Assembly (NCBI GenBank): GCA_964518565.1
Contig: CAZFGX010000001.1
Coordinates: 669,404-733,403, forward strand
DNA: 64,000 nt
DNA from: an uncultured Gammaproteobacteria bacterium
GTDB lineage: Bacteria > Patescibacteriota > Microgenomatia > CAZETR01 > Amesbacteraceae
Reading direction: 5' to 3'
A program made the translations under genes and the position numbers. The notes below the pieces were generated by a model that worked only from the letters and a program-made list of their open reading frames with translations, made no database searches and was not told where the DNA came from. Each line of letters begins with the position of its first letter. Position 1 is the stretch's first letter. Below, piece after piece: positions 11,103 to 40,410 of this stretch.

Positions 11103-11165
11103 ATATCAATATTAATTATATTGACTTTCTATGTGAAGTATGGGCACAATAGATACATAGTTAGA

Positions 11166-11220
11166 ACTTGTAAAAACTGGTAAAAACAGCTTCAAAAAAT
11201 TGTAAAAAGTTGTCAAAACC
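11166..11220 (+). repeat. phased array of T(T)GTAAAAA / TTGTCAAAA motifs upstream of the HTH-TM-Cache gene
   Basis: Copies start at 11168, 11178, 11200 and 11210 (about 10-11 bp phasing). The same motif, reverse-complemented, forms a longer array at 38097-38170. Confidence 0.6.
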
Positions 11221-19000: not shown

Positions 19001-22000
19001 CACTTACTATTTCCGGAGATGCCTTCACTGATTTAACAGGCACCGGGTTGACTATCTCTGGCGGTGCTCTTCAAACAACACTAGGTACTGCCATCGATAG
19101 CTCTGAAATTACCGACAACACCATCACTGCTTCAGATCTCAATGCCACATTGACCTTTGCAGACAGCGATCTACTAGATCTTTCCAGTATCAACAACTCC
19201 TCTGCCAGTGAGGGGTTGTTATTACCCCAAGCCACTGCTTGTACTTCAGCTACCGCCAATGGTCAAATTTGTTGGGACAACGACACATTTGTGTTGTACG
19301 TTGGTAACGGCACCACAGCCACCTCAATTTCAAATCCTTTTGGCGCCAGCATTGATTCATCTGAAATTACCAACGACACCATCGTCAATGCCGACATCAA
19401 TTCCGCTGCTGCCATCGATTTCTCCAAACTTGCGACCCTCACAGCTGGCAACGTCTTGCTCGGCAATGCTTCCAACATCGCCACCTCTACTACCCTTTCC
19501 GGAGACGTAACCGTCGACAGTTCTGGTGTGACAACTATTGGTGCAGATAAAGTCGCCCTGACAACAGACACCACCGGTAACTACGTCGCTTCAGTCACCA
19601 ACGGCAACGGTATCACCGGTGGCAATGGTGGTTCCGAAGGCGCAGCTCTGACTCTCGCCGTCGACCAAACCTACGCCTTTACCTGGACTGGTCTCCAAAC
19701 CCACACCAACACCATTACCGACGACGGTAGTCAATCAATTTTCAATCTGACGCTTGGCAACGACGCCAATACCGATACCGTTTCCGCCATCAAAGTAGCT
19801 GCTACCTCCGCCGCCACCGGTGACGCTGATACCATCTACGGCCTAGATATTGCCAATCTTGCTTCAGCAAACGCTACTGTTGCCGAACAGGCTATCCATA
19901 TCGGTTCTGGTTGGGACAATATCTTTGATATCAACGGCACACTTATTTCAGCCACTGAAATTGGCTTGCTTGATGGTCTATCTGGCACAATTCTGACTTC
20001 TGGCAACTACTCTTCCACTCTGGACAGTGTCTACGTCAACGTCGGTGAATCTCCCGCTGCTGGAGATATCACTGGCTCATTCTCCGGCGGTTTAACTATC
20101 GGTTCAGACTCAGTCGCCTTAGCCACTGACACTACCGGTAATTATGTCGCCACAGTTACTGGCAACTCTCAGATTTCTGTTTCAGGATCTGGTTCCGAAA
20201 ATGCCGGCGTTTCACTCTCAGTAGCTGCGGACAGTATCGGCGATTCCCAACTTGCCTTTGATACTGGTCAAAATCTGACTTCCACCTCCACTCCAACCTT
20301 TGGCTCATTAACTCTCAACGGCTCCCTTACCCTGGCCAACTCAGAAACTATTGCCAATAGCACAAATTCCCAATTTACTTTCGGCCGCAACGATGCCGGT
20401 ACAGTTACTCTGACCGCTGCCGACAATGATGCTACTGCTGCTCTGAGTATCTTGCCTGGCGGAGCAGCTGCATTTACTCTCGGCGGAGCTTCCACTACTG
20501 CCATAACTCTCACTACCGACAGCACAGGTGACAGTGAAGTAGTCTTACCAGCCAACTCAATCGGTAATTCAGAATTAGTGAATTCTAGTATCACCATAAA
20601 TTCTGCCGGCATCCTCACTGGCGGTGCATCTGTATCCCTCGGTGGAAATATCACACTCACTGCCACTGAAGCCGACACTCTAAATTCAGTCGCCGGTCGC
20701 GGTGCATCTACTGCCACAGCTTTAACACTTTCCTCTACTTCAAATGCTATTACTGCTGGAACGCTTACAATCAACAGTGACGCGTTTACAGATCTGACAG
20801 GCACTGGTCTGACAATCTCAGGTGGAGCACTGCAAACCACACTCGGAACTGCTATCGATAGTTCTGAAATTACCGACGATACAATCACCGCCTCTGATCT
20901 AAACGCTACCTTAACATTCGCAGACGGTGATCTAATCGATCTTTCCTCAATCAATAACTCCTCCACCACCGAAGGTCTAAAACTTCCCCAAGCCACTGCC
21001 TGTACTTCAGCCACCGCCAATGGACAAATTTGTTGGGACAACGATACATTTGTGTTGTATGTCGGCAATGGTACTACTGCTACCTCCATCTCCAATCCAT
21101 TTGGCGCTAGTATAGATTCTTCAGAAATCACCAACGACACCATAGTCAACGCGGACATCAATTCTGCCGCTGCAATAGACTTCTCCAAACTAGCCGCTCT
21201 TTCTTCTGGAAACATCCTCGTCGGTTCAGTGGGCAACGTCGCCACCTCAGTCGCCATGTCTGGAGACGTCACTATAGATAATGCCGGCGCCACAACTATT
21301 GGTGCCGACAAAGTGGCACTAACAACTGATACTACCGGCAACTATGTCGCTTCAGTTACCAACGGCACAGGTATTACAGGTGGCAACGGTGGTTCAGAAG
21401 GTGCTGCTCTAACCTTGGCAGTAGACCAATCAACAGCATTTACTTGGACCGGTCTCCAAACTCATACCAATACAATCACAGACGACGGATCTCAATCTAC
21501 CTTCAACCTCACCCTTGGCAATGATGCAAATACCGACACCATTTCTGCCATCAAAGTCGCCGCCACTTCGGCTGCCACTGGCGACATCGATACAGTCTAC
21601 GGACTCGATATCGCCAACCTAGCTTCCGCCAATGGTACTGTCTTAGAACAAGCCATTCATATCGGCACAGGTTGGGACAATATCTTTGATCTAAACGGCA
21701 CACTTATTTCTGCCACTGAACTAGGTCTTTTGGACGGTCTATCAGGTACACTACTTACGTCAGCCAATTACACGTCCACTCTCGACAGTGTCTATGTCAA
21801 TGTCGGCGAATCACCTGCCGCAGGCGACATTGCCGGTTCCTTCTCTGGCGGCCTAACGGTCGGCGCTGATTCCGTTGCTCTAGCTACAGATACTACTGGA
21901 AACTATGTCGCCACTATCACTGGCGATTCTCAAGTTTCAGTCTCTGGTTCTGGATCTGAAAATGCTGGCGTATCTATCTCCATAGCTGCAAATAGCATCG

Positions 22001-25000
22001 CCGACGCCCAACTAGCTTTCAACACAGGTCAACACTTAACCACTACATCCACACCTACTTTTGGTTCACTCACCCTCAATGGATCCCTCACTTTGGCCAA
22101 CAGCGAAACGATTGCAAACGGCACAGACGGCCAAATCCTCTTCTCTCGCAACGACGCCGGCACAGTCACGATCAATGCTGCCGATAACGATGCCAATGCA
22201 GACCTCGTAATCAGAGCTGGTGGCACAGGTGCATTAACCTTTGGCAATGCAAGCAACACGTCCATCACCCTTACCACTGATAGTACTGGTGACGCGGAAG
22301 TCGTCCTACCAGCAAGCTCAGTTGGCAATTCTGAACTAGTAAATTCCTCAATTACCATCAATTCATCAGGCATCCTAACTGGTGGCGCTTCAGTATCTCT
22401 TGGTGGAAATATTACCCTAACCGCCACTGAAGCAGACACTCTAAACTCAGTCGCTGGTCGTGGCGCATCTACTGCCACTGCCCTGACACTTTCTTCCACT
22501 TCAAATGCCATTACTGCCGGTACGATCACAGTTAACGCCGATGCTATTACAGACTTCACCGGCACTGGTATCACGATTTCCGGTGGTGCACTCCAAACCA
22601 CTCTCGGTACTGCGATCGATTCTTCAGAAATTACTGACAATACTATCACTGCCTCAGATCTCAATGCCACATTGACCTTTGCAGACAGTGATCTAATCGA
22701 CCTCTCTGCCATAAACAACTCCTCAACAACTGAAGGCTTACTTCTTCCTCAAGCCACCGCTTGTACTTCAGCTACTGCCAACGGCCAAATCTGCTGGGAC
22801 AACGATTCCTTCACACTCAGTATCGGCAATGGCACAACTACCACATCCATAGGCAACCCCTTCGGTGCCAGTATCGATTCTTCAGAAATCACCAATGACA
22901 CCATCGTTAATGCCGACATCAACTCCGCTGCCGCCATCGACTTTTCCAAGCTGGCCGCTCTTTCCTCTGGAAACATCTTGGTCGGTTCTGTAGGCAACGT
23001 TGCCACATCAGTTACCATGTCTGGCGACATCACTATCGACAACACTGGCGCCACTACTATCGGAGCAGATAAAGTCGCCTTAACTACCGACACCACTGGT
23101 AACTATGTCACTTCCGTCACCAACGGCACAGGTATTACAGGTGGCAATGGTGGATCTGAAGGTGCAGCCTTAACCTTGGCTGTAGATCAAACCACCGCTT
23201 TCACTTGGACTGGTCTCCAAACCCACACCAACACCATCACCGACGATGGTAGTCAATCTATATTCAACCTCACTCTAGGCAACGATGCTAACACCGACAC
23301 TATTTCTGCCATCAAAGTCGCAGCCACTTCTGCGACCACTGGCGATGCCGACACAGTCTACGGTCTAGATATCGCCAACTTATCTTCAGCTGATGGCACT
23401 GTTGCAGAAAATGCAATTCACATCGGCACAGGCTGGGACAACGTCTTCGACCTCAACGGTACTCTTATTTCCAGCTCAGAACTTACTTTATTAGATGGAG
23501 TTTCTGGCACTCTCGTCACCACCACCACCAACCCCACTTCAGCCGACATATCTGGTTCATTCTCAGCTGGATTCACAGTCGCAGCTAATGCAGTAGCCTT
23601 AGCTACCGACACTACTGGCAATTATGTCGCAACCGTCGCCGGTGATTCCCAAATCTCAGTTTCAGGCTCTGGTTCAGAAAACGCTGGAGTTTCACTCTCA
23701 ATTGCCGCCGACAGTATTGGCGATTCCCAACTCGCTTTCAATACCGGTCAAAATCTAACCACTACTTCTACTCCCACCTTTGGCTCACTCACTCTCAATG
23801 GCTCTCTCACCCTCGCCAACTCAGAAACTATTGCCAATGGTACAGATGGTCAAATTCTTTTCTCTCGCAACGATGCTGGCACTGTCACCATAAACGCCGC
23901 AGACGATAATGCCAACGCAGATCTGGTTGTCAGAGCCGGCGGCACTGGCGCTCTTACACTCGGAAACTCTAGCAATACTGCCATTACACTAACCACTGAC
24001 AGTACTGGTGATGGCGAAATCGTTCTACCTGCCAACTCTATCGGCAACTCAGAACTCGTAAACTCTGCCATCACCATCAATTCCGCTGGCATTCTCTCCG
24101 GAGGCGCTTCCGTTTCACTAGGCGGCAATGTCACTCTAACCGCCACTGAAGCAGACACGCTCAACACAGTTGCAGGTCGCGGCGCCTCCACTGCTACTGC
24201 CTTGACACTCTCCTCCACATCAAACGCCATTACCGCCGGAACCATCACCGTCAATTCAGACGGAATCACCGACTTTACTGGTACTGGCTTACAAATGAAC
24301 AGTGGATCCTTAGAAGCCACCCTGGGTACCAGTATCGTTTCCGGCGAAATCACCGACGACACTATTACTGCCTCAGACCTAAACGCTACTCTCACATTTG
24401 CTGACAGTGACATGATTGACCTCTCCAGTATCAACGGTTCATCTACTACTGAAGGGCTTAAACTCCCACAAAATACCTCCTGTGCTTCATCTACTGCCAA
24501 TGGCCAGATTTGTTGGGACAACGACGGTTTTGTTCTCTACATCGGTAACGGCACTACGACCACGGCCATTACTGGTGGTGGCGGAAATTCATTTGAAACT
24601 ATCACTACCACTTCTGGCTCTTCCCCAGTCGCCGATTCTTCCACCGACACACTCACACTTACCGCCGGAACCGGTATGACCGTTACCGGTGATTCCTCTA
24701 CTGACACCATTACTCTCGCCACTACTCTCGGCACTGCTATCGATAGTTCAGAAATCACTAACGATTCGATCGTTAATGCTGATATTAATTCGGCTGCCGC
24801 CATCGACTTCTCCAAGCTCGCTACCTTGTCTTCAGGCAACATTCTCGTTGGATCAGTCGGCAATGTCGCCACATCAGTCGCGATGTCTGGCGACGTCACT
24901 ATCGACAACACAGGTGCCACCACCATCGGTGCAGACAAAGTTGCCTTAACGACAGACACCACTGGCAACTATGTCCAAAGTATCACCAACGGTACAGGTA

Positions 25001-28000
25001 TCTCCGGCGGCAATGGTGGTGGCGAAGGCTCAGCTCTTACTCTTGCAGTGGATCAAACCACGGCCTTCACTTGGACAGGTCTACAAACTCATACCAACAC
25101 TATTACCGATGATGGGGCCCAATCTACCTACAACCTCACCCTCGGCAATGATGCCAATACAGATACGGTTTCAGGTGTAGCTATCAATGTCACCTCCACA
25201 GCTACTGGTGACGCCGACACACTCTACGGTCTAAACATTGCCAATATCACTGCCCAAGCCGTGGTCACTGAAACCGCTATCAACATCGGCACAGGTTGGG
25301 AACAGGCTATCAACGCCGGCGGTACGTTGATCTCCCTCTCAGAACTCCAATTAATCGATGGTGGTATAGCTCTATCTGAACTCACTGATTCTGGTACTCT
25401 GACAGCTGGCACAGTCGACATCAACGGTGGCGCAATTGACGGCGTAACTATTGGTGGCTCTTCAGCAGGTGCCGGCACATTCACCACCCTAACAGCTACC
25501 GGCGATGTCACCATGAACGATGCTGGCGCAGACAATATCTTAATCGGTGCCGCCGCAGACACACTGACTCTGACATCAAATTCCCTCTCGCTCACCGATG
25601 ACAACTGGAGTATTTCCACCTCCGGCGCTCTTACCACTTCCGGAGCCATCAATGCCAACGGCGGCATCACCACATCCACTTCAAACACAGCTCTCGCTTT
25701 CACTGTAAACGGATCTGGAGACTTCACCTTTACTGCCGACAGTGACAGCCAAGTCCAAATCAGTCTCGACGACAGCAGTACCAACACCGGTCTCGAACTT
25801 CTGCGCCTGACCCGCACTACTTCCAGTACAGCAGCTGACAGTATCGGTGGCTACATAAGCTTCTATATCGAAAACGATACTAGTACTGCCGAAGCTGCCC
25901 GCATCTTAGCCAACCTCCGCGATGCCAATGTCGCCACAACAGTAGGTACAGATATAACCATGTACGTAGCACGCGACGGATCCACCGGTGAATTGATCGA
26001 CGGTATGACAGTCTATGTGGACGCTGCCAACAAATGGGTCTGTGGTAACGCCAACAAACTCGGCAACGATGGCTACGACTGTTTCGGTTTCCAAATCGGT
26101 ACATCCAACATCATCAACTTTAGCTTTGATGGGAGTAATAGATTCAATGTGGATTACAGTTCAGGTAGTACTCAGCTAGCTCTTTATTCTGTAAACAGTG
26201 GCGACGATCTCTTGGTTAAAACTCTCGGCGACCAGGCCATCAGCTTTGACCAAAACAACGACGGCAACAACATGGTTATTGATACTGATGGCCAAGTAGG
26301 TATCGGTACTGATACTCCAGCCAATGCCCTAGAAGTCTTGTCTACCACCACTCCCCAATTTAGAGTTTCCTACGACACCAGCAACTACACCACTTTCGCC
26401 GTTTCCTCCACCGGCGTACTCACCATCGACTACACTGGTACAGCTGGCGGAATTACTCTAGCCGATTTCACCGGCGGTGGCTCTGGCTGTTCAGCCCTGG
26501 AGACCAACAGTTCAGGCGTCCTTGCCTGTGGCACAGACGATACTGGTGGATCCTCCACTATGCAAGGTGTATATGACAACGATGTCAACGGCAGCGATGT
26601 TACTATTGCCATGAATACTACAGACGGCTCAATCATTTTCACAGAAGCTGCTGGTACTAATCACCAAATCACAACCACTGCCGCCCCAACGCTTGACCAG
26701 CTGGCTCTTACAAATACTGGATTTGGCACCACCACTGATGGTGTAGATGGTCTATCAATTGTCTTCGAACAAGCCGACGATGCCGACGCCACAGATACAA
26801 ACGCCGGCCTAAATGTTTCCGTCTCTGGAGCCTCTGGAGACCTAGGAGATATCCTTTCAGGAATCAGTATTAACACAACTGCTCAAACAGCCAACAATCG
26901 CGAAATTGGTCTCACTATCGGTACAGGATTCGATGAAGACATTCGCTTTGCTTCCGCTTCTGCAATAATTCGTATGCAAGACGGTGGCACACTCAGCTTT
27001 ATGGATGGCTCATATGGCCAAGGTGCTACAAAGGATCAACCAAATGCCCGCGTAATTGAGTACTTTAGCACCGCAAACTATGGCGTCTTTGAAGCTGGTG
27101 GGTTTGTAAATATTGATGGTAGCTACTATCAAGATAACTTTAGTATCCCCATGACAGCAGTAACAGCGGATGTGACTAGTCGCACAAACCGATTTGGTGA
27201 CCATGGAAACTGGTCGTTTGACGAAGCCGGTACCGGCGGTGGCTCAACCGCGACCAACTCAACAAAGTATGGATGTACTCTATCTCAAGGTGGTTCTGGT
27301 GCAGGAGCTGGTACAAACACATCCTTTGGTCGTTTAGAGTTCTCTCCAGATTTGGGAACACACACACATACTGCCGCAGATTCTGCCTGTGTCGCCCATC
27401 TTGGTATAGGCACCGGCACAAACACTGCTGGTGTATTAAACGCTGCCTACAAATATGTTCAATATTTCAAAGTTGGTTTTTCATCAGGTTTCACCAACAA
27501 CAATTCAGCCAATCAAGCGTTTGTAGGTGCACACAATTACACAGAAGCCTGGGGACAGAATTGGAGCTCAATTGCAGCAACTCATGGCTTTATTGGGTTT
27601 GCGAATCTTATCTCCACAACCACAGCCACAGATGCACAAGGCGGCACCCAATGGAACGGATTTGCTCGCGTAGGCAACGCTATTAGCTCGGTCGCCTGTG
27701 GAACAACCGGAAATATTAGTACAGCTTCAAATGCCTGGGCACTTATGCGTATCGAAGCACGTGCCACAAATGACGTGCACTTCTTTATTGATAGTGACGT
27801 AAGCAATGGTATAGCACTAACAGAGTGTGGCGCTGGTGTTTCTTCAAACATCTCCACTCGCAACTTAAACCCAGCCATGAATGTTGTCCATCAACAAAAC
27901 CTTTCCTCTGCCGGTAATTCTTGGACCATGTATGTAGACTTATATGCCCACGTTCAAGACGATCCAAAACCAGAAAATGGTCCAATAGCCTTCAGTGACA

Positions 28001-29262
28001 CAGTAGACACCAACTCACCACTGGATCCCATTTCTGGCGCGGACGTAGCCGAATACTACCAAATGCCAAACGGCTATGATTCTATAAACATTGGTGACAT
28101 CGTCTCCTTGGGCTCTGAGCCAGGCAAGGCTGAAGTTGCAACAAAACCTCAAGACCGAAAAATGCTAGGTGTAGTTTCCGAAAAGCCTGGACTCACACTC
28201 GGCCAATCTGAAGGCCAAAACATGATGCCTATTGCTCTCACCGGCCGCGTACCGGTTCGTATTAGCTCTAAAAATGGCACCATTAAAATCGGCGACGCAA
28301 TCACCTCTTCAGATATACCAGGTGTAGGTATCAAGGCTACCCAACCAGGAAAAATTCTCGGAACTGCCATGGAAAACTTCGACTCAAATGACGAAGGCCG
28401 CATCATGGTAAACATCAATGTCGGATATTACCTAGGTGAAGAATCTGAACAACCCCTACTCGTCCAAAAAAATGAAATAAACATCACACCTTCTATTGAA
28501 TCTGACACATCAATGGCCACAGATAGCGCTGGATTAACAGCTGGGTCAGTCGGAGAATTTATCATTAACAAACCCTCAGTGTTCCAACAACTCTCTCAAT
28601 TCATGAATGACATAATAGTGAACGGCAAAGCGACGTTTAACAATTCAGTAGCCTTCTTGGGCAACACACTATTTAAAGGTAAAGCAACCTTTGAAAAAAC
28701 TGTAGAGTTTAATGAAGACGCCGCTGGTTATGCTGTAATCAAAGCCGGCCATCGTGCAGTGAATATTACCTATGCTACTGAGTATTCAAATAATCCATTA
28801 GTAAACACCTCTCTCGTCGTCACCAAAATTACTCCAGAAATCTACACTGATCGTGTATCTCGCGGCATCTGTAATGAGACGGCCGGCATGCAAGCCTGCC
28901 AAGACAATATGGTAAATGAGGTACTTGGAAACGATGTAAAATTTGCCATCGTCGACAGCAGTACCCAAGGATTCATGATTCTTCTCAACAAGCCAACTCA
29001 AGTAGACATGACCTTCTCATGGACAGCTACTGCAGTAACAAAAACAAAGGTAAGCACAAGTACAACCGATCCAGCTCTAGAATCAGCATTTAAAAATATC
29101 AGCGAGTCATCGTCTGACTCAGCTAGTTTAATCCAGGAGATAAACGAACAAATAGCTACAACATCAGCAATTCTAGGAAGTCAAATCAGTATAAATGACC
29201 AATTGTTAAACGAAAATTCAGCTACTTCTTCAGCCTCACCCTCAGCATCGACATCCCCATAG
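13063..29262 (+). CDS. giant (5399 aa) secreted/surface-anchored repeat protein, fibre/adhesin-like
   Basis: Single uninterrupted ORF with an N-terminal signal anchor. Thr/Ser/Gly/Asn-rich beta-type repeats and a non-repetitive C-terminal 1300 aa containing VGIGTDTPANALEV and a beta-rich terminal domain. All minus-strand ORFs in this interval are shadows. Confidence 0.85.
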   Translation: MNKRGISPIIILLVIGLATTVTFGTATLVRHYSNPFAKANLQLNLKNSPDVIDASKLAGAVLQSPVVGITQLESGKYTAFQIQDADIQNIDNTPTLSLSARLLSLSNDPISLSGPNKIDYIELKNHKTSNAKVVIPGIVQVKTKSGDIINVLLSQAKIRNGQIIDAFYGQVVDSAHLIAGVGEISGNLTYPAVEIGGQPANSGISSLVRQAMRVVPSLSLDSRPISISQTQGTVVLGATTDMLQSLNLDFSAPYDAVFDEKSGTWTLPGQSGVSISTIATDRQVAKAIEDKISSGDLVLPTATNGITEIKSANDKLTVTTNESLVTLRLSLVNSIDSDSIIDGSITNSDIYSGANIGDSKLDQIKSANKVAGSAIQLSTTGGLENNSGLSLLTSCSINQVLKWDGSDWICATQSGGGGSSIDIQENDSTITSAAAFLDFLGSDFTVTNSPSGEANVAIDYTNSAITRSNQNETISGTWTFSSTPTITNLPNSALANSGITVTAGTGLSGGGAVSLGGSVTLSSTLGTAIDSSEITNDTIVNADINSAAAIDFTKLASLTAGYILLGNSSNVVTATALSGDITIDSSGVTTIGADKVALGTDTTGNYVAGATTNGGLALTGTEAGTLGLITSCSDNQVLKYTAAGGWACANDTTGGGSGNSFETISTASGTSPVADSSTDTLSLTAGSGITIVGDASNDSIAIAATLGNTIDSSEITNDTIVNADINSAAAIDFSKLGALTAGNILLGNSSNVATSTAMSGDITIDSSGVTTIGADKVALATDTTGNYVATVTGNSQISVSGSGSENAGVSLSIAADSIGDSQLAFNTGQNLTTSSTPTFSALTLNGNLTLANAETLSNGTDGQITFGRNDAGTVTLTAADNDSTAALTILPGGAAGLTLGGSSTTAITITTDGTGDSEVVLPANSVGNSELVNSSITINSAGILSGGASVSLGGNITLTATEADTLNTVAGRGASTATALTLSSTSNAITAGTLTINGDTFTDLTGTGLTISGGALQTTLGTAIDSSEITDDTITASDLAATLTFADGDLLDLSNINNSSTSEGLKLPQATACTSATANGQICWDNDTFVLYVGNGTTASSISNPFGVSIDSSEITNDSIVNADINSSAAIDFSKLATLTAGNVLLGNSSNVATSTALSGDVTVDSSGVTTIGADKVALATDTTGNYVATVTGNSQISVSGSGSENAGVSLSIAADSIGDSQLAFNTGQNLTTASSPSFASQTLSNTTNQLVLGTTNTTTISSTAPSTSRTYTIPDFGSNDSFVGLAATQTLTNKTISGSSNTLSNIGNSSLTNSSITINTSGILTGGASVSLGGNITLTATEADTLATVTGRGASTSTTLSLAAFTASDTFTQTYTPAGTVASPRGVILTPTFGIDATDQTLAALYINPNTNSNSDSGDSLNGINIAAITASSANETAILIGSAGGGSTGWNNILAVNSSVIINGSGVLQSAALSGTYSNALTLSSTSNAITAGTVTVNSDAITDFTGTGLQMNSGSLETTLGTDITNSEINASAAIDFSKLATLTAGNVLLGNASNIATSTTLSGDITVDNSGVTTIGADKVALGTDTTGNYVSSATTNKGLTLSGTEGGSLGLQNCADNEILKYSTGTSTWSCASDATGGTINSFETITTTSGTSPVADSSTDTLTLTAGTGITVTGDSSTDTITLAATLGTAIDSSEITNDTIVNADINSAAAIDFSKLAALTAGNILLGNGSNVATSTTLSGDITIDSSGVTTIGANTVALATDTTGNYVATITGNSQISVSGSGSENAGVSLSIAADSIGDSQLAFDTGQNLTSTSTPTFGALTLNGSLTLANSETIANSTNSQFTFGRNDAGTVTLTAADNDATAALSILPGGAAALTLGGSSTTAVTLTTDNTGDAEVVLPANSIGNSELVNSSITINSAGILTGGASVSLGGNITLTATEADTLDAVAGRGASTSTALTLSSTSNAITAGTLTISGDAFTDLTGTGLTISGGALQTTLGTAIDSSEITDNTITASDLNATLTFADSDLLDLSSINNSSASEGLLLPQATACTSATANGQICWDNDTFVLYVGNGTTATSISNPFGASIDSSEITNDTIVNADINSAAAIDFSKLATLTAGNVLLGNASNIATSTTLSGDVTVDSSGVTTIGADKVALTTDTTGNYVASVTNGNGITGGNGGSEGAALTLAVDQTYAFTWTGLQTHTNTITDDGSQSIFNLTLGNDANTDTVSAIKVAATSAATGDADTIYGLDIANLASANATVAEQAIHIGSGWDNIFDINGTLISATEIGLLDGLSGTILTSGNYSSTLDSVYVNVGESPAAGDITGSFSGGLTIGSDSVALATDTTGNYVATVTGNSQISVSGSGSENAGVSLSVAADSIGDSQLAFDTGQNLTSTSTPTFGSLTLNGSLTLANSETIANSTNSQFTFGRNDAGTVTLTAADNDATAALSILPGGAAAFTLGGASTTAITLTTDSTGDSEVVLPANSIGNSELVNSSITINSAGILTGGASVSLGGNITLTATEADTLNSVAGRGASTATALTLSSTSNAITAGTLTINSDAFTDLTGTGLTISGGALQTTLGTAIDSSEITDDTITASDLNATLTFADGDLIDLSSINNSSTTEGLKLPQATACTSATANGQICWDNDTFVLYVGNGTTATSISNPFGASIDSSEITNDTIVNADINSAAAIDFSKLAALSSGNILVGSVGNVATSVAMSGDVTIDNAGATTIGADKVALTTDTTGNYVASVTNGTGITGGNGGSEGAALTLAVDQSTAFTWTGLQTHTNTITDDGSQSTFNLTLGNDANTDTISAIKVAATSAATGDIDTVYGLDIANLASANGTVLEQAIHIGTGWDNIFDLNGTLISATELGLLDGLSGTLLTSANYTSTLDSVYVNVGESPAAGDIAGSFSGGLTVGADSVALATDTTGNYVATITGDSQVSVSGSGSENAGVSISIAANSIADAQLAFNTGQHLTTTSTPTFGSLTLNGSLTLANSETIANGTDGQILFSRNDAGTVTINAADNDANADLVIRAGGTGALTFGNASNTSITLTTDSTGDAEVVLPASSVGNSELVNSSITINSSGILTGGASVSLGGNITLTATEADTLNSVAGRGASTATALTLSSTSNAITAGTITVNADAITDFTGTGITISGGALQTTLGTAIDSSEITDNTITASDLNATLTFADSDLIDLSAINNSSTTEGLLLPQATACTSATANGQICWDNDSFTLSIGNGTTTTSIGNPFGASIDSSEITNDTIVNADINSAAAIDFSKLAALSSGNILVGSVGNVATSVTMSGDITIDNTGATTIGADKVALTTDTTGNYVTSVTNGTGITGGNGGSEGAALTLAVDQTTAFTWTGLQTHTNTITDDGSQSIFNLTLGNDANTDTISAIKVAATSATTGDADTVYGLDIANLSSADGTVAENAIHIGTGWDNVFDLNGTLISSSELTLLDGVSGTLVTTTTNPTSADISGSFSAGFTVAANAVALATDTTGNYVATVAGDSQISVSGSGSENAGVSLSIAADSIGDSQLAFNTGQNLTTTSTPTFGSLTLNGSLTLANSETIANGTDGQILFSRNDAGTVTINAADDNANADLVVRAGGTGALTLGNSSNTAITLTTDSTGDGEIVLPANSIGNSELVNSAITINSAGILSGGASVSLGGNVTLTATEADTLNTVAGRGASTATALTLSSTSNAITAGTITVNSDGITDFTGTGLQMNSGSLEATLGTSIVSGEITDDTITASDLNATLTFADSDMIDLSSINGSSTTEGLKLPQNTSCASSTANGQICWDNDGFVLYIGNGTTTTAITGGGGNSFETITTTSGSSPVADSSTDTLTLTAGTGMTVTGDSSTDTITLATTLGTAIDSSEITNDSIVNADINSAAAIDFSKLATLSSGNILVGSVGNVATSVAMSGDVTIDNTGATTIGADKVALTTDTTGNYVQSITNGTGISGGNGGGEGSALTLAVDQTTAFTWTGLQTHTNTITDDGAQSTYNLTLGNDANTDTVSGVAINVTSTATGDADTLYGLNIANITAQAVVTETAINIGTGWEQAINAGGTLISLSELQLIDGGIALSELTDSGTLTAGTVDINGGAIDGVTIGGSSAGAGTFTTLTATGDVTMNDAGADNILIGAAADTLTLTSNSLSLTDDNWSISTSGALTTSGAINANGGITTSTSNTALAFTVNGSGDFTFTADSDSQVQISLDDSSTNTGLELLRLTRTTSSTAADSIGGYISFYIENDTSTAEAARILANLRDANVATTVGTDITMYVARDGSTGELIDGMTVYVDAANKWVCGNANKLGNDGYDCFGFQIGTSNIINFSFDGSNRFNVDYSSGSTQLALYSVNSGDDLLVKTLGDQAISFDQNNDGNNMVIDTDGQVGIGTDTPANALEVLSTTTPQFRVSYDTSNYTTFAVSSTGVLTIDYTGTAGGITLADFTGGGSGCSALETNSSGVLACGTDDTGGSSTMQGVYDNDVNGSDVTIAMNTTDGSIIFTEAAGTNHQITTTAAPTLDQLALTNTGFGTTTDGVDGLSIVFEQADDADATDTNAGLNVSVSGASGDLGDILSGISINTTAQTANNREIGLTIGTGFDEDIRFASASAIIRMQDGGTLSFMDGSYGQGATKDQPNARVIEYFSTANYGVFEAGGFVNIDGSYYQDNFSIPMTAVTADVTSRTNRFGDHGNWSFDEAGTGGGSTATNSTKYGCTLSQGGSGAGAGTNTSFGRLEFSPDLGTHTHTAADSACVAHLGIGTGTNTAGVLNAAYKYVQYFKVGFSSGFTNNNSANQAFVGAHNYTEAWGQNWSSIAATHGFIGFANLISTTTATDAQGGTQWNGFARVGNAISSVACGTTGNISTASNAWALMRIEARATNDVHFFIDSDVSNGIALTECGAGVSSNISTRNLNPAMNVVHQQNLSSAGNSWTMYVDLYAHVQDDPKPENGPIAFSDTVDTNSPLDPISGADVAEYYQMPNGYDSINIGDIVSLGSEPGKAEVATKPQDRKMLGVVSEKPGLTLGQSEGQNMMPIALTGRVPVRISSKNGTIKIGDAITSSDIPGVGIKATQPGKILGTAMENFDSNDEGRIMVNINVGYYLGEESEQPLLVQKNEINITPSIESDTSMATDSAGLTAGSVGEFIINKPSVFQQLSQFMNDIIVNGKATFNNSVAFLGNTLFKGKATFEKTVEFNEDAAGYAVIKAGHRAVNITYATEYSNNPLVNTSLVVTKITPEIYTDRVSRGICNETAGMQACQDNMVNEVLGNDVKFAIVDSSTQGFMILLNKPTQVDMTFSWTATAVTKTKVSTSTTDPALESAFKNISESSSDSASLIQEINEQIATTSAILGSQISINDQLLNENSATSSASPSASTSP
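14600..25200 (+). repeat. intragenic tandem repeats of about 1.2-1.8 kb (6-7 units, roughly 85-90% nt identity)
   Basis: The motif coding for IDSSEITNDTIVNADINSAAAIDF recurs near 14641, 15181, 16381, 18141, 19341, 21111, 22861 and 24731. TGTTGGGACAACGAC recurs at 16311, 19271, 21031, 22791 and 24521. Confidence 0.8.
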
Positions 29263-36350: not shown

Positions 36351-37537
36351 ACAATCTGCAACGTTTCTATCTCAATCAGCATTCAAACTTAATCAACCAT
36401 CTAGTACCAGTTGGTGCCCATTCCAACTATCGAGTACTAAATGACAATATTGGCGAACAAACAGATATTTTAAAAACTCTAGAAAAAGCCCGAAGTGAAT
36501 TGTCTGCCAATGGTCGGATAGTCTTCACATCTATTAATTTCCTATGGCAACCCATAGTTACCCTAGCTGAGTACCTAAAAATCAAAAGGCCACAACCGCA
36601 ACAAAGCTGGCTATCACATACCGACATAAAAAATTTACTCTATCTTGCAAATTTTGAAGTTGTCACATCAGGCACCCACCTCCTATTGCCTATCTATATC
36701 CCTTATTTCAGTTCATTTATAAACCAATATATAGCTCGTCTTCCTATTATTAAACACCTTTGCCTTATTCAGTATTTCGTCGCCAAAAAAATACCCCAGA
36801 CAAACCCAGACAAAGACTATAGTGTATCTATTATCGTCCCAGCCAGAAACGAATCAGGAACTATAGAGACCATTATCAAAAACCTACCTTATCTAGGCAC
36901 CCATACAGAAATTATTTTTGTCGAAGGTCATTCAAAAGATGGTACCAACACAACTATTCGCCAAGCAATTACAAAATTCAAACATAAAGATATAAAACTA
37001 ATTACTCAAACCACTACATCTGGCAAAGGCGATGCCGTTAGAAAAGGTTTTAATCGAGCCACTGGTGACATACTTGTGATATTTGACGCAGATCTATCCA
37101 TGTCCGCAAATGAATTACCCATTTTTTACCACGTGCTTAGAACCCACAAAGCAGACTTTGTCATGGGTTCGAGACTTATTTACCCCATGGAAAACCAAGC
37201 CATGAGGTTTCTAAACATTTTAGGCAATAAAGCATTTAGTCTCATTTTTTCTTGGATTTTAAATCTACCAGTAAAAGATACGCTCTGTGGCACAAAGTGT
37301 TTATTTAAAAAGGACTATCAGTTAATAGCTAAAAATAGAGCATATTTTGGCGACTTTGATCCCTTCGGCGATTTTGACCTCATTCTTGGCGCCTCAAAAG
37401 CAAATCTAAAAATTATCGAAGTTCCTATTCATTACAAAGCAAGAGTCTATGGCAAAACCAACATTAGTCGTTTCCGCCACGGTTGGTTACTAGTACAAAT
37501 GACTTTATTTGCCGCCAAAAAGCTCAAATTCTTTTAA
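36347..37537 (+). CDS. GT2 glycosyltransferase, DPM1/GtrB-like polyprenyl-phosphate sugar synthase with N-terminal extension
   Basis: ATGA overlap with the upstream gene. VSIIVPARNESGTIETII, FVEGHSKDGT and GKGDAVRKGFNRATGDILVIFDADLS are GT2 signatures. Confidence 0.75.
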   Translation: MNNLQRFYLNQHSNLINHLVPVGAHSNYRVLNDNIGEQTDILKTLEKARSELSANGRIVFTSINFLWQPIVTLAEYLKIKRPQPQQSWLSHTDIKNLLYLANFEVVTSGTHLLLPIYIPYFSSFINQYIARLPIIKHLCLIQYFVAKKIPQTNPDKDYSVSIIVPARNESGTIETIIKNLPYLGTHTEIIFVEGHSKDGTNTTIRQAITKFKHKDIKLITQTTTSGKGDAVRKGFNRATGDILVIFDADLSMSANELPIFYHVLRTHKADFVMGSRLIYPMENQAMRFLNILGNKAFSLIFSWILNLPVKDTLCGTKCLFKKDYQLIAKNRAYFGDFDPFGDFDLILGASKANLKIIEVPIHYKARVYGKTNISRFRHGWLLVQMTLFAAKKLKFF

Positions 37538-38117
37538 AAACCAGCCTGGTAATAGGAAACCAGGTCGGATTTTTCTCCACCAAAGCTAACCCCACACTCC
37601 TGGCTTGATTCACAATCTTGGGCATATCCACTCTTTGATGAGGACCTTCAGGCATTTTCCAGCCCATTTTTTCCCAGACTATCAGTAACGGCTCCCAAAA
37701 CGGACCCACAAATGTCACTATCAGCCGACCATCAGCTTCTAAATGCGATTTAATCCAATCCAAGTCCCCTCTCAGATCCATTGTGTGCTCTACAACATCT
37801 GCCATAATCACTGTATTAAATTTGTCTTTTATCTCTGATTTTTTAGCCGTAAATCTGAAGTTTGGGAATTTTCTTGCCGCAAGTTTTACCATTTCACTAC
37901 TAATATCAAAACCTGTTCCCATTATCGGGTCTAAATAAGCCAATATCTGGCCAGTTCCGCATCCATAATCTAATACGTTTTTTTTATTACCAGCTTTTGA
38001 ACGAATTATCCTTTTAAGTACACTATAATAAATGCCATTTTTTCGCTTAAAACTGTCATACAAATGTGCGATTTCATCAAAATGTTGTTCTACGTCGTTT
38101 TTACAAGTTTTTACCAT
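37524..38117 (-). CDS. class I SAM-dependent methyltransferase
   Basis: VLDYGCGTGQILAYL (motif I) and ADVVEH (post-I acidic region). Confidence 0.8.
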   Translation of the reverse strand: MVKTCKNDVEQHFDEIAHLYDSFKRKNGIYYSVLKRIIRSKAGNKKNVLDYGCGTGQILAYLDPIMGTGFDISSEMVKLAARKFPNFRFTAKKSEIKDKFNTVIMADVVEHTMDLRGDLDWIKSHLEADGRLIVTFVGPFWEPLLIVWEKMGWKMPEGPHQRVDMPKIVNQARSVGLALVEKNPTWFPITRLVFKRI

Positions 38118-38170
38118 ATTTTAGCCTTGTTTTTACAAGTTTTTACAACTTATTACAAGTGTTTACAATC
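38097..38170. repeat. phased array (6-7 copies, about 10.5 bp period) of TTTTTACAAG, the reverse complement of CTTGTAAAAA
   Basis: Copies start at 38098, 38108, 38130, 38140, 38151 and 38162. The array overlaps the methyltransferase start codon and matches the array at 11166-11220. Confidence 0.65.
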
Positions 38171-38218
38171 AATAAAATGCTTGCAATTTAGATAAAAATA
38201 GTGCTAAGGTAATTTTAG

Positions 38219-38962
38219 ATGGCATTTATTACCAAAAAGAAACTCCTTATTGGCACGGTTGTCTTACCATTTATCGCCGGAATTGCTGGCGGCGGTTATT
38301 ATTTCTACAAACAATATAGCACTACCAAGTCCCAACTAGAGCAACTCAAGTCTCAAGCTCCAAACAATGCTTCAGCTGAGGAAAACCAAAAAACCGTCTC
38401 CCAAGTAGCCAAGCTCATGGACCTCCCATCAGATCAGCCAACAGTAGCAACCATCACAGACAAAGAAAAGCTTAAAGATCAGCCATTTTTTAGCCGTGCA
38501 GACAACGGTGACAAGGTTTTAATATTCGCCGCCTCTAAAAAAGCCATTATCTATAGACCTAGTACAAACAAAATTGTAGATATTGCCCCAATCAATATCT
38601 CAAATGCCACACCCTCTGGTCAAACCGCTCAGCCGACTGGAAAAGTAGCCGGAGCCACGGCCTCCACACCCACGACTAAACCCCTGAGCGTACTACTGGT
38701 AAATGGTACAGATTCTTCTGGCTTGACCAACAAATTCGAAGCCTCTGTCAAAAAAGTAATTACCGGAGCCACTGTCACCAAGGAACAAGGCCAAAAACAA
38801 GATCATGACAAATCAGTCATTGTCGTCTCAAAAGATGAATTTAAAGACGCCGCCGACAAACTCAGCAAAGAGTTAGGTATATCTCTGGGAGATTCCCCCT
38901 ATGGCGAAGATCTAGCCGGCAAAGCTGACATCGTAGTTCTATTCGGCACAGATAAAAAATAA
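38219..38962 (+). CDS. membrane-anchored LytR_C-domain protein
   Basis: N-terminal TM helix. C-terminal VLLVNGTDSSGLTNKFEASV...DIVVLFGTD resembles the LytR C-terminal (cell envelope-related) domain. Confidence 0.6.
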   Translation: MAFITKKKLLIGTVVLPFIAGIAGGGYYFYKQYSTTKSQLEQLKSQAPNNASAEENQKTVSQVAKLMDLPSDQPTVATITDKEKLKDQPFFSRADNGDKVLIFAASKKAIIYRPSTNKIVDIAPINISNATPSGQTAQPTGKVAGATASTPTTKPLSVLLVNGTDSSGLTNKFEASVKKVITGATVTKEQGQKQDHDKSVIVVSKDEFKDAADKLSKELGISLGDSPYGEDLAGKADIVVLFGTDKK

Positions 38963-39017
38963 ACCAAAACAAAGGCAATTCACTTTTTAAATCGAATCTT
39001 GTATAATCCTCCAAGCC

Positions 39018-40391: not shown

Positions 40392-40410
40392 AGGAGGTGA
40401 CCAATTAACA

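What the first reader, a model, noticed from the sequence alone, without database searches (positions are those of the whole stretch)
38097..38170. Helically phased array of TTTTTACAAG (CTTGTAAAAA) motifs, also present upstream of the HTH/giant operon
Six to seven copies lie at 10-11 bp spacing (38098, 38108, 38130, 38140, 38151, 38162), overlapping the methyltransferase start codon. The same motif in the opposite orientation forms a four-copy phased array at 11166-11220, directly upstream of the HTH-TM-Cache gene. A related AATTGTAAAAG copy sits at about 54417, upstream of giant gene 2. Phased A5 tracts give intrinsically curved DNA, and a repeated 10-mer on one face is the classic layout of a cooperative transcription-factor binding array. 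The adjacent HTH proteins are obvious candidate binders.
Basis: seen in the sequence. Interest (0 to 1): 0.6.

Follow-up and report, generated by a model that had tools for sequence, protein, structure and literature searches.

The report
Phased direct-repeat operator arrays in Microgenomates
Two clusters of a 10-base motif, (C/G)TTGTAAAAA, repeated once per DNA helical turn, are real and conserved control sites, most likely the landing pads of a membrane-anchored sensor-regulator encoded next to one of them, which would be the first regulator-and-operator pair proposed for this uncultured bacterial group, as far as the library searches here show.

Summary
At 38098-38169 there are seven 10-bp slots (TTTTTACAAG on +), and at 11167-11218 five slots of the same unit on the other strand. 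Both include a 2-bp phase correction, so the average step is about 10.5 bp. The single motif is not enriched in the window, but the clustering is far beyond chance.

Comparative data decide the meaning.
- The same unit occurs in direct repeat just upstream of the HTH_17-TM-dCache gene in 10 of 10 lineages examined (23-60% protein identity), whatever the neighbouring gene.
- The 38-kb array is kept upstream of the LytR_C-rplA-rplJ-rplL cluster in the three closest relatives. The overlap with the methyltransferase start is therefore not its conserved feature.

The N-terminal domain of the 11235 protein is nearly invariant. It matches mycobacteriophage Xis by sequence and BldC by fold. Both of those bind phased direct repeats head-to-tail.

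Best reading: these are operator arrays for a membrane-tethered, Cache-sensing, Xis/BldC-like regulator. It would autoregulate its own operon with the giant gene and also control the LytR_C cluster. Binding itself is inferred, not shown.

The copy at 54416 and the 54527 MerR-type protein are not supported as parts of the system.

The parts
38098..38169 (.). Array 1: seven 10-bp slots of (C/G)TTGTAAAAA, read on the - strand (TTTTTACAAG on +). Slot 3 (38118-38127) is degenerate and is followed by a 2-bp phase correction (38128-38129).
   Evidence: Orthologous arrays in L122, L123 and L124.
38181..38210 (+). Candidate promoter P2 of the LytR_C cluster: TTGCAA-18-TAAGGT, 8 nt before the ATG. The array lies 11 nt upstream of its -35 hexamer.
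   Evidence: Read. The same layout, TTGnnn-17/18-TAnnnT close to the ATG, is seen in L123, L124 and L122 and in many distant orthologues. Inferred, not mapped.
38142..38169 (+). Alternative candidate promoter P1 inside the array: TTTACA-16-TACAAT (10 of 12 consensus positions).
   Evidence: It is not convincingly conserved in L122-L124.
38219..38962 (+). LytR_C-type membrane protein gene, first gene of the cluster with rplA (39018-39806), rplJ (39879-40391) and rplL (40411-40800). This is the conserved neighbour of array 1.
37524..38117 (-). SAM-dependent methyltransferase gene. Its ATG lies in slot 2 of array 1 and its AAGG ribosome-binding site lies in slot 3. It is divergent from the LytR_C gene.
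   Evidence: It is adjacent to the array only in the window and in L122.
11167..11218 (+). Array 2: CTTGTAAAAA, CTGGTAAAAA, 12 bp degenerate, ATTGTAAAAA, GTTGTCAAAA. It is on the same strand as the HTH gene and ends 16 nt before that gene's ATG.
11121..11150 (+). Candidate promoter of the HTH-dCache/giant operon: TTGACT-18-CACAAT. This places array 2 at about +10 to +62 of the transcript.
   Evidence: It is conserved as TTGACG-18-CACAAT in L205 and as TTGACT-17-TGCAAT in L207. Inferred.
11235..13070 (+). Gene for the proposed binder. The product has an Xis/BldC-like winged HTH (residues 1-52), a disordered linker (54-80), about nine TM helices, an extracytoplasmic dCache domain and a final TM helix (576-602).
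13063..29262 (+). Giant gene (5399 aa, no Pfam domain) that overlaps the end of the regulator gene by 8 nt. It is the presumed co-regulated cargo.
   Evidence: A large downstream gene overlaps or abuts the regulator gene in nearly all related loci; L217 is the exception.

Best explanation
The two arrays are double-stranded DNA operator sites. Each is made of head-to-tail copies of (C/G)TTGTAAAAA placed once per helical turn, with occasional 1-2 bp corrections that keep every unit on one face of the helix.

The most likely binder is the N-terminal Xis/BldC-type winged helix-turn-helix of the membrane protein encoded at 11235-13070. By analogy with BldC and Xis, each monomer would put its wing into the narrow minor groove of the A5 tract and its recognition helix into the adjacent TTGT major groove. 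Neighbouring monomers would touch head-to-tail, giving a short cooperative filament on already curved DNA.

The domain is joined by a flexible linker of about 27 residues to a multi-pass membrane region and an outward-facing dCache ligand sensor. Occupancy would therefore report an extracellular signal.

At its own operon (regulator plus giant gene) the array lies between the candidate promoter and the start codon. This suggests negative autoregulation. In the source clade a second array lies just upstream of the promoter of the LytR_C-rplA-rplJ-rplL cluster, in the opposite orientation, and touches the divergent methyltransferase start. This brings that cluster under the same control, with the sign unknown.

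Shown: the arrays, their phasing, their conservation and gene linkage, and the fold class and conservation of the domain.
Inferred: who binds, the direction of regulation, and the promoter positions.
For: 1. The arrays are real and non-random.

2. Linkage to the regulator gene. Two to seven (C/G)TTGTAAAAA-like units lie on the gene's strand in front of the gene in 10 of 10 lineages: window, L205, L084, L206, L219, L213, L207, L220, L222 and L223. The last unit ends 6-47 nt before the called start in nine of them, and about 340 nt before it in L207, where an ORF is inserted. Protein identity runs from 60% down to 23%. The upstream neighbours differ: dprA, an HTH_17+PIN pair, a LysM-M23 peptidase, lepA, a GalT-like gene. 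The background is 0.1 unit per 140 nt. L084 turned up by motif alone and proved to sit in front of such a gene.

3. Phasing. All steps between units are 9-13, 20-24 or 44 bp. The usual pattern 0,10,20,32,42 averages 10.5 bp.

4. The DNA-binding domain is under far stronger constraint than the rest of the protein. Identity is 48-76% over 65 residues against 21-33% overall, except for the 61%-identical closest relative. F16, S17, T18, N19, T20, Y22, R34, G39, R40 and F41 are invariant. This matches an invariant DNA unit.

5. Fold class. Pfam HTH_17 E=3.7e-10. Pukovnik Xis 4j2n E=5.7e-6 with the single sequence and 6.8e-8 with a profile. The AF2 model (pLDDT 79) best matches Xis and the BldC-DNA complexes 6ama/6amk (TM 0.8-0.9, rmsd 1.1-2.0 A).

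6. Precedent. BldC binds 9-bp direct repeats head-to-tail, with the wing in an AT-rich minor groove. Xis and D29 Gp36 behave similarly (PMC5859096, PMC12266134).

7. Array 1 is kept upstream of the LytR_C cluster in L122, L123 and L124 with the same '2 units + 2 bp + 3 units' layout, although the upstream gene differs.

8. The orientation differs between the two gene classes and no RNA structure is predicted. Both argue for a role as duplex DNA.

9. The full-length model (pLDDT 83) shows HTH, disordered linker, about nine TM helices, dCache and a last TM helix. The sensor matches the ligand-binding dCache domains of KinD, Mlp37 and PctA.
Against: - There is no binding experiment, and no whole-genome scan of the source organism. 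Another factor with the same site preference cannot be excluded, for example an OmpR/PhoB-type response regulator or another of the many HTH_17 proteins of these bacteria.
- A five-unit array in a Roizmanbacteria genome lies between two convergent genes, with no such regulator gene in the 8 kb held. Not every array is next to the gene.
- The promoters are consensus guesses. The sign of regulation is therefore open.
- A DNA-binding domain fixed to the membrane must draw chromosomal sites to the membrane. This is known for ToxR and CadC but is untested here.
- The LytR_C-linked array is limited to a narrow clade. It is absent from 69 more distant orthologous loci.
- The fixed orientation and short distance to the start codon at the regulator gene, together with the absence of a Shine-Dalgarno sequence, would also fit a role in the mRNA leader.
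Confidence: 0.6

Rival explanations
1. The arrays are binding sites for a different direct-repeat-binding regulator, most plausibly an OmpR/PhoB-family response regulator. Known boxes of that family are hexamer direct repeats one helical turn apart. From my own knowledge: Bacillus PhoP TT(A/T/C)ACA with about 5 bp between, which resembles TTTACA on one strand here, and WalR TGTWAH-N5-TGTWAH, which resembles TGTAAA on the other. The regulator operon would then simply be a constant member of that factor's regulon.
For: The units read TTTACA / TGTAAA in tandem. Groups of two or three units are typical of sites for tandem dimers. The array in L010 is not next to an HTH_17-dCache gene.
Against: No response regulator is encoded among the window's genes scanned against Pfam. 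The step is 10-10.5 bp rather than 11 bp. Ten of ten lineages keep the array at the HTH_17-dCache gene, whose DNA-binding domain is nearly invariant. Autoregulation is therefore the simpler account. The resemblance to the PhoP and WalR boxes is recalled from memory and was not tested.
Confidence: 0.15
2. The arrays act without a dedicated protein. They would be intrinsically curved, A-tract-phased promoter DNA (UP-element-like) or clusters of overlapping sigma-70-like hexamers (TTTACA / TACAAT) that raise or tune transcription of the adjacent genes.
For: Both arrays rank in the top five predicted curvature peaks of the window. TTTACA-16-TACAAT scores 10/12 inside array 1. Array 1 lies just upstream of the conserved candidate promoter P2. 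A few distant LytR_C loci carry other A/T-rich tandem repeats at the same place (L137, L147, L202).
Against: Curvature needs only phased A-tracts, yet TTGT is as conserved as the A-tract (34-36 of 37 and 19-20 of 20 units). At the regulator gene the array lies downstream of the candidate promoter, with only 6-25 nt left before the start codon in eight of the ten lineages, and no room for a promoter in the window itself (16 nt). The in-array promoter is not conserved in L122-L124. Only 5 of 69 distant LytR_C loci have any tandem repeat.
Confidence: 0.12
3. At the regulator operon the repeat works in the mRNA leader. An A-rich, unstructured (CUUGUAAAAA)n stretch would serve as a translation enhancer or a binding platform for an RNA-binding protein, on a gene that lacks a Shine-Dalgarno sequence.
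For: The orientation relative to the gene is constant (10/10), and in nine of the ten lineages the last unit ends only 6-47 nt before the start codon. No Shine-Dalgarno sequence is visible in the window, L205, L084, L213 or L222. The leader is predicted to be unstructured.
Against: The same unit occurs in the opposite orientation, upstream of the candidate promoter, at the LytR_C cluster in four genomes. It also occurs between convergent genes in L010. Steps that are multiples of the duplex helical repeat, with 2-bp corrections, have no meaning for single-stranded RNA. In L207 the array stays with the promoter after a GIY-YIG ORF was inserted between it and the gene.
Confidence: 0.08
4. The arrays are chance or neutral tandem duplications (replication slippage) in AT-rich spacers, with no function.
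For: The single motif is not enriched in the window. Two-unit matches occur by chance in many unrelated genomes.
Against: The arrays are conserved across lineages whose proteins share only 23-60% identity and whose spacers are otherwise unalignable. They keep the same unit, strand and phase. Clusters of 6 and 4 units were never approached in 600 simulations.
Confidence: 0.02

Closest known systems
BldC of Streptomyces (founding member of the BldC family of MerR-like winged-HTH regulators; PDB 6ama, 6amk; PMC5859096)
   Same: It is a minimal winged HTH without a coiled coil. It binds a variable number (2-4) of direct repeats head-to-tail, one monomer per repeat, with the wing in an AT-rich narrowed minor groove and a few base contacts in the next major groove. 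The DNA is bent. The model of the window's domain superposes on BldC at TM 0.8-0.9.
   Different: BldC is a free 68-residue cytoplasmic protein, whereas here the domain is the N-terminus of a 611-residue polytopic membrane protein with a dCache sensor. The BldC unit is 9 bp (AATTxxxxC), whereas here it is 10 bp with 2-bp corrections. BldC is not detected by sequence search, only by fold.
Mycobacteriophage Pukovnik/L5 Xis (gp37, PDB 4j2n) and lambda-type excisionases; D29 Gp36 (PMC12266134)
   Same: This is the closest solved relative by sequence (41% identity, E 6.8e-8). These proteins form cooperative filaments on tandem direct sites and bend DNA. Gp36 shows that such a domain can act as a transcriptional repressor on direct repeats.
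   Different: Excisionases are architectural factors of site-specific recombination on mobile elements. Here there is no integrase or attachment site, the gene is chromosomal and conserved across a bacterial group, and the domain is fused to a membrane sensor.
Membrane-bound one-component regulators ToxR, TcpP and CadC (own knowledge)
   Same: They have a cytoplasmic N-terminal DNA-binding domain, membrane anchoring and an outward sensor domain. ToxR binds tandem direct repeats (TTTTGAT) upstream of ctx.
   Different: Those proteins use an OmpR-type winged helix and a single TM helix. This one uses an Xis/BldC-type domain, about ten TM helices and a dCache sensor. No homology.
OmpR/PhoB-family response-regulator boxes (PhoP TT(A/T/C)ACA repeats, WalR TGTWAH-N5-TGTWAH; own knowledge)
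   Same: These are hexamer direct repeats about one helical turn apart, in groups of two or four, placed at or near promoters. The hexamers resemble TTTACA / TGTAAA.
   Different: Their period is 11 bp against 10-10.5 bp here. No receiver-domain protein is linked to the arrays. The resemblance was not tested.

Membership tests
BldC/Xis-type (Pfam HTH_17) direct-repeat-binding winged HTH proteins | MerR-like winged helix-turn-helix without a coiled-coil dimerisation helix | tested here: met
   Pfam HTH_17 E=3.7e-10. Xis 4j2n E=6.8e-8. The AF2 model has the order strand-helix-helix-strand-strand-helix and best matches Xis and BldC. Residues 54-80 are disordered and no coiled coil follows.
BldC/Xis-type (Pfam HTH_17) direct-repeat-binding winged HTH proteins | Target sites are direct (not inverted) repeats, about one per helical turn, in variable number | tested here: met
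   There are 2-7 units, all on one strand. The steps are 9-13 bp or multiples, and the mean is about 10.5 bp. That this protein uses these sites is inferred from gene linkage.
BldC/Xis-type (Pfam HTH_17) direct-repeat-binding winged HTH proteins | Each unit combines an AT-rich narrow-minor-groove segment with a few specific bases in the adjacent major groove | tested here: inconclusive
   The unit is an A5 tract plus a conserved TTGT, which fits the pattern. Groove contacts cannot be tested by sequence.
BldC/Xis-type (Pfam HTH_17) direct-repeat-binding winged HTH proteins | Cooperative head-to-tail oligomerisation on DNA | not testable with these tools
   This needs EMSA, footprinting, stoichiometry or a structure of the complex.
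BldC/Xis-type (Pfam HTH_17) direct-repeat-binding winged HTH proteins | Small free-standing protein (about 55-75 residues) | tested here: not met
   The protein has 611 residues with about ten TM helices and a dCache domain. It is therefore a fused variant, not a typical member.
Excisionase / recombination directionality factor | Encoded with an integrase on a mobile element and acting at an attachment site | tested here: not met
   No integrase was found among the window genes scanned. The flanking genes are dprA, comM, nusG and rplK, which are chromosomal. The gene is conserved with a giant gene in about 240 clusters at 50% identity.
OmpR/PhoB response-regulator operator | A receiver-domain regulator with an OmpR-type winged helix linked to, or encoded with, the sites | tested here: inconclusive
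   None was found among the window's genes scanned against Pfam. The rest of the genome could not be searched.
UP element / intrinsically curved promoter DNA | Phased A-tracts located upstream of the -35 hexamer | tested here: inconclusive
   Curvature is predicted. The position fits array 1 if P2 is the promoter. It does not fit array 2 or its nine counterparts, which lie downstream of the candidate promoters.
Plasmid/phage iterons or partition-site repeats | Association with replication-initiator or partition genes, or an origin | tested here: not met
   No such genes were found among those scanned. Cumulative GC skew is monotonic across the window, with no turning point. The arrays go with specific chromosomal operons.
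DNA uptake sequence (considered because dprA and comM are adjacent) | Strong genome-wide over-representation of the motif as dispersed single copies | tested here: not met
   12 matches against 8.5 expected in 64 kb. The arrays persist where dprA is not adjacent.
Structured cis-regulatory RNA (Rfam families, leaders) | Match to a known family, or significant and conserved secondary structure | tested here: not met
   Rfam finds only two tRNAs in the window. The folds of the leaders have z-scores of -0.2 to -0.8.

The most novel reading that the evidence does not exclude
A family widespread in Microgenomates (about 240 clusters at 50% identity) of membrane-embedded, dCache-sensing regulators has an Xis/BldC-like domain that polymerises on phase-corrected (C/G)TTGTAAAAA arrays. 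This would couple an extracellular ligand directly to transcription of giant cell-surface genes and, in one clade, of an envelope and ribosomal-protein cluster. It would be the first regulator-operator-regulon assignment I am aware of in this uncultured group, and a new architecture in which an excisionase-type DNA-filament former is turned into a transmembrane one-component signalling device.
Probability: 0.5. Interest if true: 0.7.

Novelty: new variant of a known kind. Interest (0 to 1): 0.6.

Why it matters
Almost nothing is known about gene regulation in Candidate Phyla Radiation bacteria, because they are not cultured and their regulators have no assigned sites. Three things come together here:
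- a short, sharply defined DNA unit;
- a nearly invariant 55-residue domain;
- a constant gene linkage.

This gives a hypothesis that can be tested in a day with synthetic DNA and a small recombinant peptide.

If it holds, it identifies what controls the giant genes typical of these genomes. It also shows that the BldC/Xis mode of binding (head-to-tail filaments on direct repeats) has been coupled to a transmembrane ligand sensor. Finally, it supplies a motif with which regulons can be read from metagenomes.

Tried and rejected
1. Motif scan of genome contigs with TTTTTACAANTTTTTACAA. The two-unit hits in other CPR genomes (L015, L023, L049, L086) lie inside coding regions and are chance.

2. 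The idea that array 1 serves the methyltransferase. Rejected as the conserved role, because L123 and L124 keep the array without that gene. It may still matter in the window and in L122, where the last unit ends 12 and 4 nt before the ATG.

3. The idea that array 2 is the dprA promoter (TTTACA-17-TATTGT on the - strand). Rejected, because eight lineages keep the array with other neighbours.

4. Eighty more distant LytR_C loci from metagenomes. None has the array upstream of the gene, so that linkage is clade-restricted.

5. Singleton motifs at 4727 and 5080 lie inside nusG coding sequence and are chance.

6. Rfam and RNA folding gave nothing.

7. The literature search for the tandem motif found only primers and unrelated sequences, and no paper holds the tandem form. 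No paper combined CPR, Cache and HTH terms.

8. A hydropathy count of TM helices was too crude. It was replaced by the AF2 model.

9. The Ch65 'Chazhemtobacterium' genome was considered as the source because of the skew. Its size (801,504 bp) does not match the 1,001,365-bp source contig.
Full report
**The observation**

The sequence at 38097-38170 is as described, with small corrections. On the + strand the slots are:
- TTTTTACAAG (38098)
- TTTTTACCAT (38108)
- ATTTTAGCCT (38118, degenerate), followed by TG
- TTTTTACAAG (38130)
- TTTTTACAAC (38140)
- TTATTACAAG (38150)
- TGTTTACAAT (38160)

Tandem Repeats Finder reports a period-10 array of 7.0 copies at 38097-38168. The start codon of the - strand methyltransferase (CAT at 38115-38117) lies in the second slot.

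The second array carries the same unit on the other strand: CTTGTAAAAA (11167), CTGGTAAAAA (11177), 12 degenerate bases, ATTGTAAAAA (11199) and GTTGTCAAAA (11209). It ends 16 nt before the ATG at 11235.

The motif as such is not enriched: 12 matches with one mismatch against 8.5 expected, and TGTAAAA is below expectation. A weight-matrix scan finds just these two clusters in 64 kb. They hold six and four units within 75 bp, while 600 Markov-simulated windows never exceeded two. Two isolated perfect or near-perfect copies at 4727 and 5080 lie inside nusG and are chance.

**Setting**

The window is chromosomal DNA of a Microgenomates-type CPR bacterium. It carries nusG-rplK, a Ham1-family gene, comM and dprA, rplA-rplJ-rplL, mreB, argS, F-type ATP synthase genes and two giant genes. 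The source is a contig of 1,001,365 bp.

Both arrays lie in divergent spacers:
- methyltransferase (-) | 247-aa membrane protein (+), followed by rplA, rplJ and rplL;
- dprA-comM (-) | HTH_17-TM-dCache gene (+), followed by the 5399-aa gene.

Homologues of the 247-aa protein carry the LytR_C domain PF13399.

**What array 1 belongs to**

The closest relatives of the 247-aa protein were traced to their contigs.

- L123 (63% identity). The upstream gene is on the same strand. The spacer reads TTTTTACAAG TTTTTACAAG TTCTTACAAC CG TTTTTACAAG TTCTTACAAG.
- L124 (40% identity). A beta-lactamase-like gene lies upstream on the same strand. The spacer reads TTTTTACAAG TATTTACAAC TTTTTACAAG TG TTTTTACAAG TTTTTACAAG.
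- L122 (49% identity). The methyltransferase is divergent, as in the window, and the array is present but interrupted.

The array therefore goes with the LytR_C-rplA-rplJ-rplL cluster, and the overlap with the methyltransferase start is not its conserved feature. That gene may still be affected in the two genomes where it is adjacent: in L122 the last unit ends 4 nt before its ATG.

The layout is shared. In the CTTGTAAAAA orientation it is two units, two extra bases, then three units. The window has two further units on the LytR_C side.

Sixty-nine more distant orthologous loci from metagenomes (43% identity or less) lack the array. Only five of them have any tandem repeat, and none has period 10. 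This linkage is thus clade-restricted.

Many of those loci show a canonical TTGACA-17-TAnnnT close to the start codon. The four array-bearing loci have TTGnnn-17/18-TAnnnT in the same place: in the window TTGCAA-18-TAAGGT at 38181-38210, 8 nt before the ATG. If this is the promoter, array 1 occupies roughly -45 to -120. A stronger-looking TTTACA-16-TACAAT inside the array is not conserved in the relatives. Both assignments are inference.

**What array 2 belongs to**

The 611-aa protein has 52 word-indexed relatives and about 240 clusters at 50% identity with E of 1e-10 or better. Nearly all are 600-690 residues long. The source names point to Woesebacteria and the Parcubacteria group.

Ten lineages were inspected.

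| Locus | Identity to window protein | Upstream neighbour | Units and notes |
|---|---|---|---|
| window | - | dprA (divergent) | five slots |
| L205 | 60% | dprA (divergent) | GTTGTAAGAA CTTGTAAAGA |
| L084 | N-terminal 65 residues 55% | not determined | Woesebacteria; TTTGTAAAAA CTTGTAAAAA; found only by the motif scan |
| L206 | 33% | HTH_17 + PIN pair | five units |
| L219 | 31% | HTH_17 + PIN pair | three units |
| L213/L216 | 47% over the HTH region only | LysM-M23 peptidase | Woesebacteria; units 22 bp apart, degenerate slots between |
| L207 | 30% | two unannotated same-strand ORFs | GTTGTGAAAA CTTGTAAAAA CA CTTGTAAATA CTTGTAAAAA |
| L220 | 23% | lepA | at least three units |
| L222 | 25% | LysM-M23 peptidase | three units |
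| L223 | 27% | GalT-like gene | seven units in two groups |

In every case the units are on the coding strand. In nine lineages the last unit ends 6-47 nt before the called start. The background frequency of the relaxed core is 0.1 per 140 nt.

In L207-L211 a GIY-YIG ORF has been inserted between the array and the gene. In L212, which encodes the identical protein, it has not. The array stays with the promoter.

The best candidate promoters lie upstream of the arrays:
- window: TTGACT-18-CACAAT, 11121-11150;
- L205: TTGACG-18-CACAAT;
- L207: TTGACT-17-TGCAAT;
- L213: TTGACA-17-AATAAT.

The units therefore fall in the first 60 or so transcribed base pairs.

**Phasing**

Across 57 units the consensus is the same in both gene classes. 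Position 1 is C or G. T2, T3, G4, T5, A6 and A7 are each held in 31-36 of the 37 regulator-linked units and in 19-20 of the 20 LytR_C-linked units, followed by A/G, A/T and A.

All steps between neighbouring units are 9-13, 20-24 or 44 bp. The recurrent pattern 0,10,20,32,42 averages 10.5 bp, which is the helical repeat of B-DNA. A strict 10-bp repeat would drift off one face of the helix, and the inserted 1-2 bp bring it back. This feature makes sense only for duplex DNA that is contacted from one side or bent in one plane.

A wedge-model trajectory ranks both arrays among the five most curved places in the window, under two parameter sets. The parameters were recalled from memory, so only the ranking should be trusted.

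**The candidate binder**

The first 52 residues match Pfam HTH_17. They match the excisionase of mycobacteriophage Pukovnik, 4j2n, with E=5.7e-6 for the single sequence and 6.8e-8 for a profile.

An AlphaFold2 model of the domain (pLDDT 79) is most similar to that Xis and to BldC in its DNA complexes 6ama and 6amk (TM 0.8-0.9 on the target, rmsd 1.1-2.0 A), and then to RacA.

BldC binds two to four 9-bp direct repeats as a head-to-tail chain. Its wing sits in an AT-rich narrowed minor groove, one or two residues of the recognition helix contact bases in the next major groove, and the DNA bends (PMC5859096). Xis proteins form similar filaments, and D29 Gp36 represses transcription from direct repeats (PMC12266134). 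A unit made of an A5 tract plus TTGT is what such a domain would be expected to read.

Within the family the domain is 48-76% identical over 65 residues, while the whole proteins, apart from the closest relative at 61%, are 21-33% identical. F16, S17, T18, N19, T20, Y22, R34, G39, R40 and F41 are invariant. This parallels the invariance of the DNA unit.

The full-length model (pLDDT 83) shows, in order:
- the HTH;
- a disordered linker (54-80);
- about nine TM helices;
- a long helix leading into a double-Cache domain that matches the ligand-binding domains of KinD, Mlp37, PctA and Tlp3;
- a final TM helix.

With the HTH in the cytoplasm, an odd number of helices puts the Cache domain outside.

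**Mechanism proposed**

A membrane-embedded one-component sensor uses an Xis/BldC-like domain to assemble on phased direct repeats.

At its own operon the site position, from the transcription start to just before the start codon, suggests negative autoregulation of the regulator and the translationally coupled giant gene (8-nt overlap in the window).

In the source clade a second array of opposite polarity, upstream of the LytR_C cluster promoter, extends the regulon. Its sign is unknown.

The linkage, phasing, conservation and fold class are shown. Binding, cooperativity, sign and promoter positions are inferred.

**Rivals**

- An OmpR/PhoB-type regulator could read TTTACA/TGTAAA direct repeats. 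None is encoded among the window's genes scanned against Pfam, but the genome could not be searched.
- Pure curvature or UP-element action explains neither the conserved TTGT nor the position downstream of the promoter at the regulator gene.
- An RNA-leader role fits the constant orientation and the missing Shine-Dalgarno sequence there. It does not fit the reversed, promoter-upstream array at the LytR_C cluster, the duplex-type phasing, or the lack of predicted structure.
- Neutral slippage is excluded by the conservation.

A caution: a five-unit array in a Roizmanbacteria genome (L010) lies between convergent genes, with no such regulator in the 8 kb held. The factor, whoever it is, has sites elsewhere.

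**The third site of the finding**

AATTGTAAAAG at 54416-54426 is a single unit, 100 nt upstream of the 54527 ORF. It aligns as the third, weaker copy of a different 25-30-nt repeat (…AATGTCCAAGwTTTTTTCCGAAAA…) found at 54186 and 54314, 128 bp apart.

The 54527 ORF is one reading frame of at least 3157 codons that begins with a classical MerR-type HTH. That is not the conserved HTH_17 domain. Neither is supported as part of this system.

**Comparison and novelty**

The binding mode proposed is that of BldC and Xis. The signalling logic is that of ToxR and CadC. The combination differs from both in three ways:
- an excisionase-type domain is fused to a polytopic dCache sensor;
- it is constantly paired with a giant gene;
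- a defined 10-bp operator unit is conserved across a CPR group.

This combination was not found in the literature searched. I class it as a new variant of a known kind.

Noticed in passing
window 54527-64000 (+): 'Giant gene 2' is a single open reading frame of at least 3157 codons that runs off the window. Its first 60 residues are a classical MerR-type HTH (PF00376 E=6.6e-14). A DNA-binding domain at the N-terminus of a giant protein is unusual.
   Followed up: partly
The spacer also ranks high in predicted curvature.
   Followed up: partly
window 1-64000: GC skew is strongly negative (about -0.2) in every 2-kb bin regardless of gene orientation, so cumulative skew falls monotonically. This matches the strand disparity described for order UBA1400 Microgenomates (Ch65, Collierbacteria, Beckwithbacteria; PMC7143001). 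The source is not Ch65 itself, because the sizes differ.
   Followed up: partly
L207 2720-3001 (also L208-L211) versus L212: A 93-codon GIY-YIG ORF sits between the operator array and the regulator gene in five contigs. It is absent from a sixth contig that encodes the identical protein. This looks like a polymorphic insertion of a mobile endonuclease gene into the leader.
   Followed up: partly
L010 3388-3440 (Roizmanbacteria CAWJTN010000001.1): A five-unit array (CTTGTAAAAA CTTGTAAAAA TTGGTAAAAAA ATTAGTAAAAA GTGTTAAAAA) lies between two convergent genes, with no HTH_17-dCache gene in the 8 kb held.
   Followed up: partly
window 11219-11237; L205 1385-1407; L084 3482-3504; L222 3995-4003: The regulator genes lack a Shine-Dalgarno sequence. 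They share a C-rich CTGCC(C/A) stretch immediately before the ATG, and in the window and L205 a complementary GGGCA lies at the candidate -10 region. This is unexplained.
   Followed up: no
window 13063-13070 and related loci: The regulator gene overlaps or abuts a very large downstream gene (over 500 to 5399 codons, many truncated by contig ends) in nearly all related loci; L217 is the exception. The 5399-aa product has no Pfam domain.
   Followed up: partly
window 4480-5541 versus 38219-40800: rplK follows nusG, but rplA is 33 kb away, behind a LytR_C-domain membrane-protein gene. The order LytR_C-rplA-rplJ-rplL is kept in the relatives whose contigs were annotated here (L122, L124). The rplA product is 262 aa, and the Pfam match covers only residues 149-256.
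   Followed up: partly
L123 141-155, L124 9861-9871, L122 9893-9908, window 54216-54231: A short TTTTGAGGCT(G/A) element directly abuts the LytR_C-linked arrays in the relatives, and it occurs again in the spacer before giant gene 2. In the window's array 1 the reverse complement (CAAGGCTAAAA) supplies the methyltransferase ribosome-binding site.
   Followed up: no
L135 1070-1130: In a more distant LytR_C locus, two to four units (CTTGTAAGAA CTTGTATAAA … CTGGTAAAAC) lie just downstream of the LytR_C stop codon rather than upstream of the gene.
   Followed up: no
L137 about 9750-9950, L147 about 1735-1815, L202 about 5575-5605: Some distant LytR_C loci carry unrelated A/T-rich tandem repeats (periods 7, 8 and 16) in the spacer upstream of the gene, ahead of a canonical promoter where one is visible.
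   Followed up: partly
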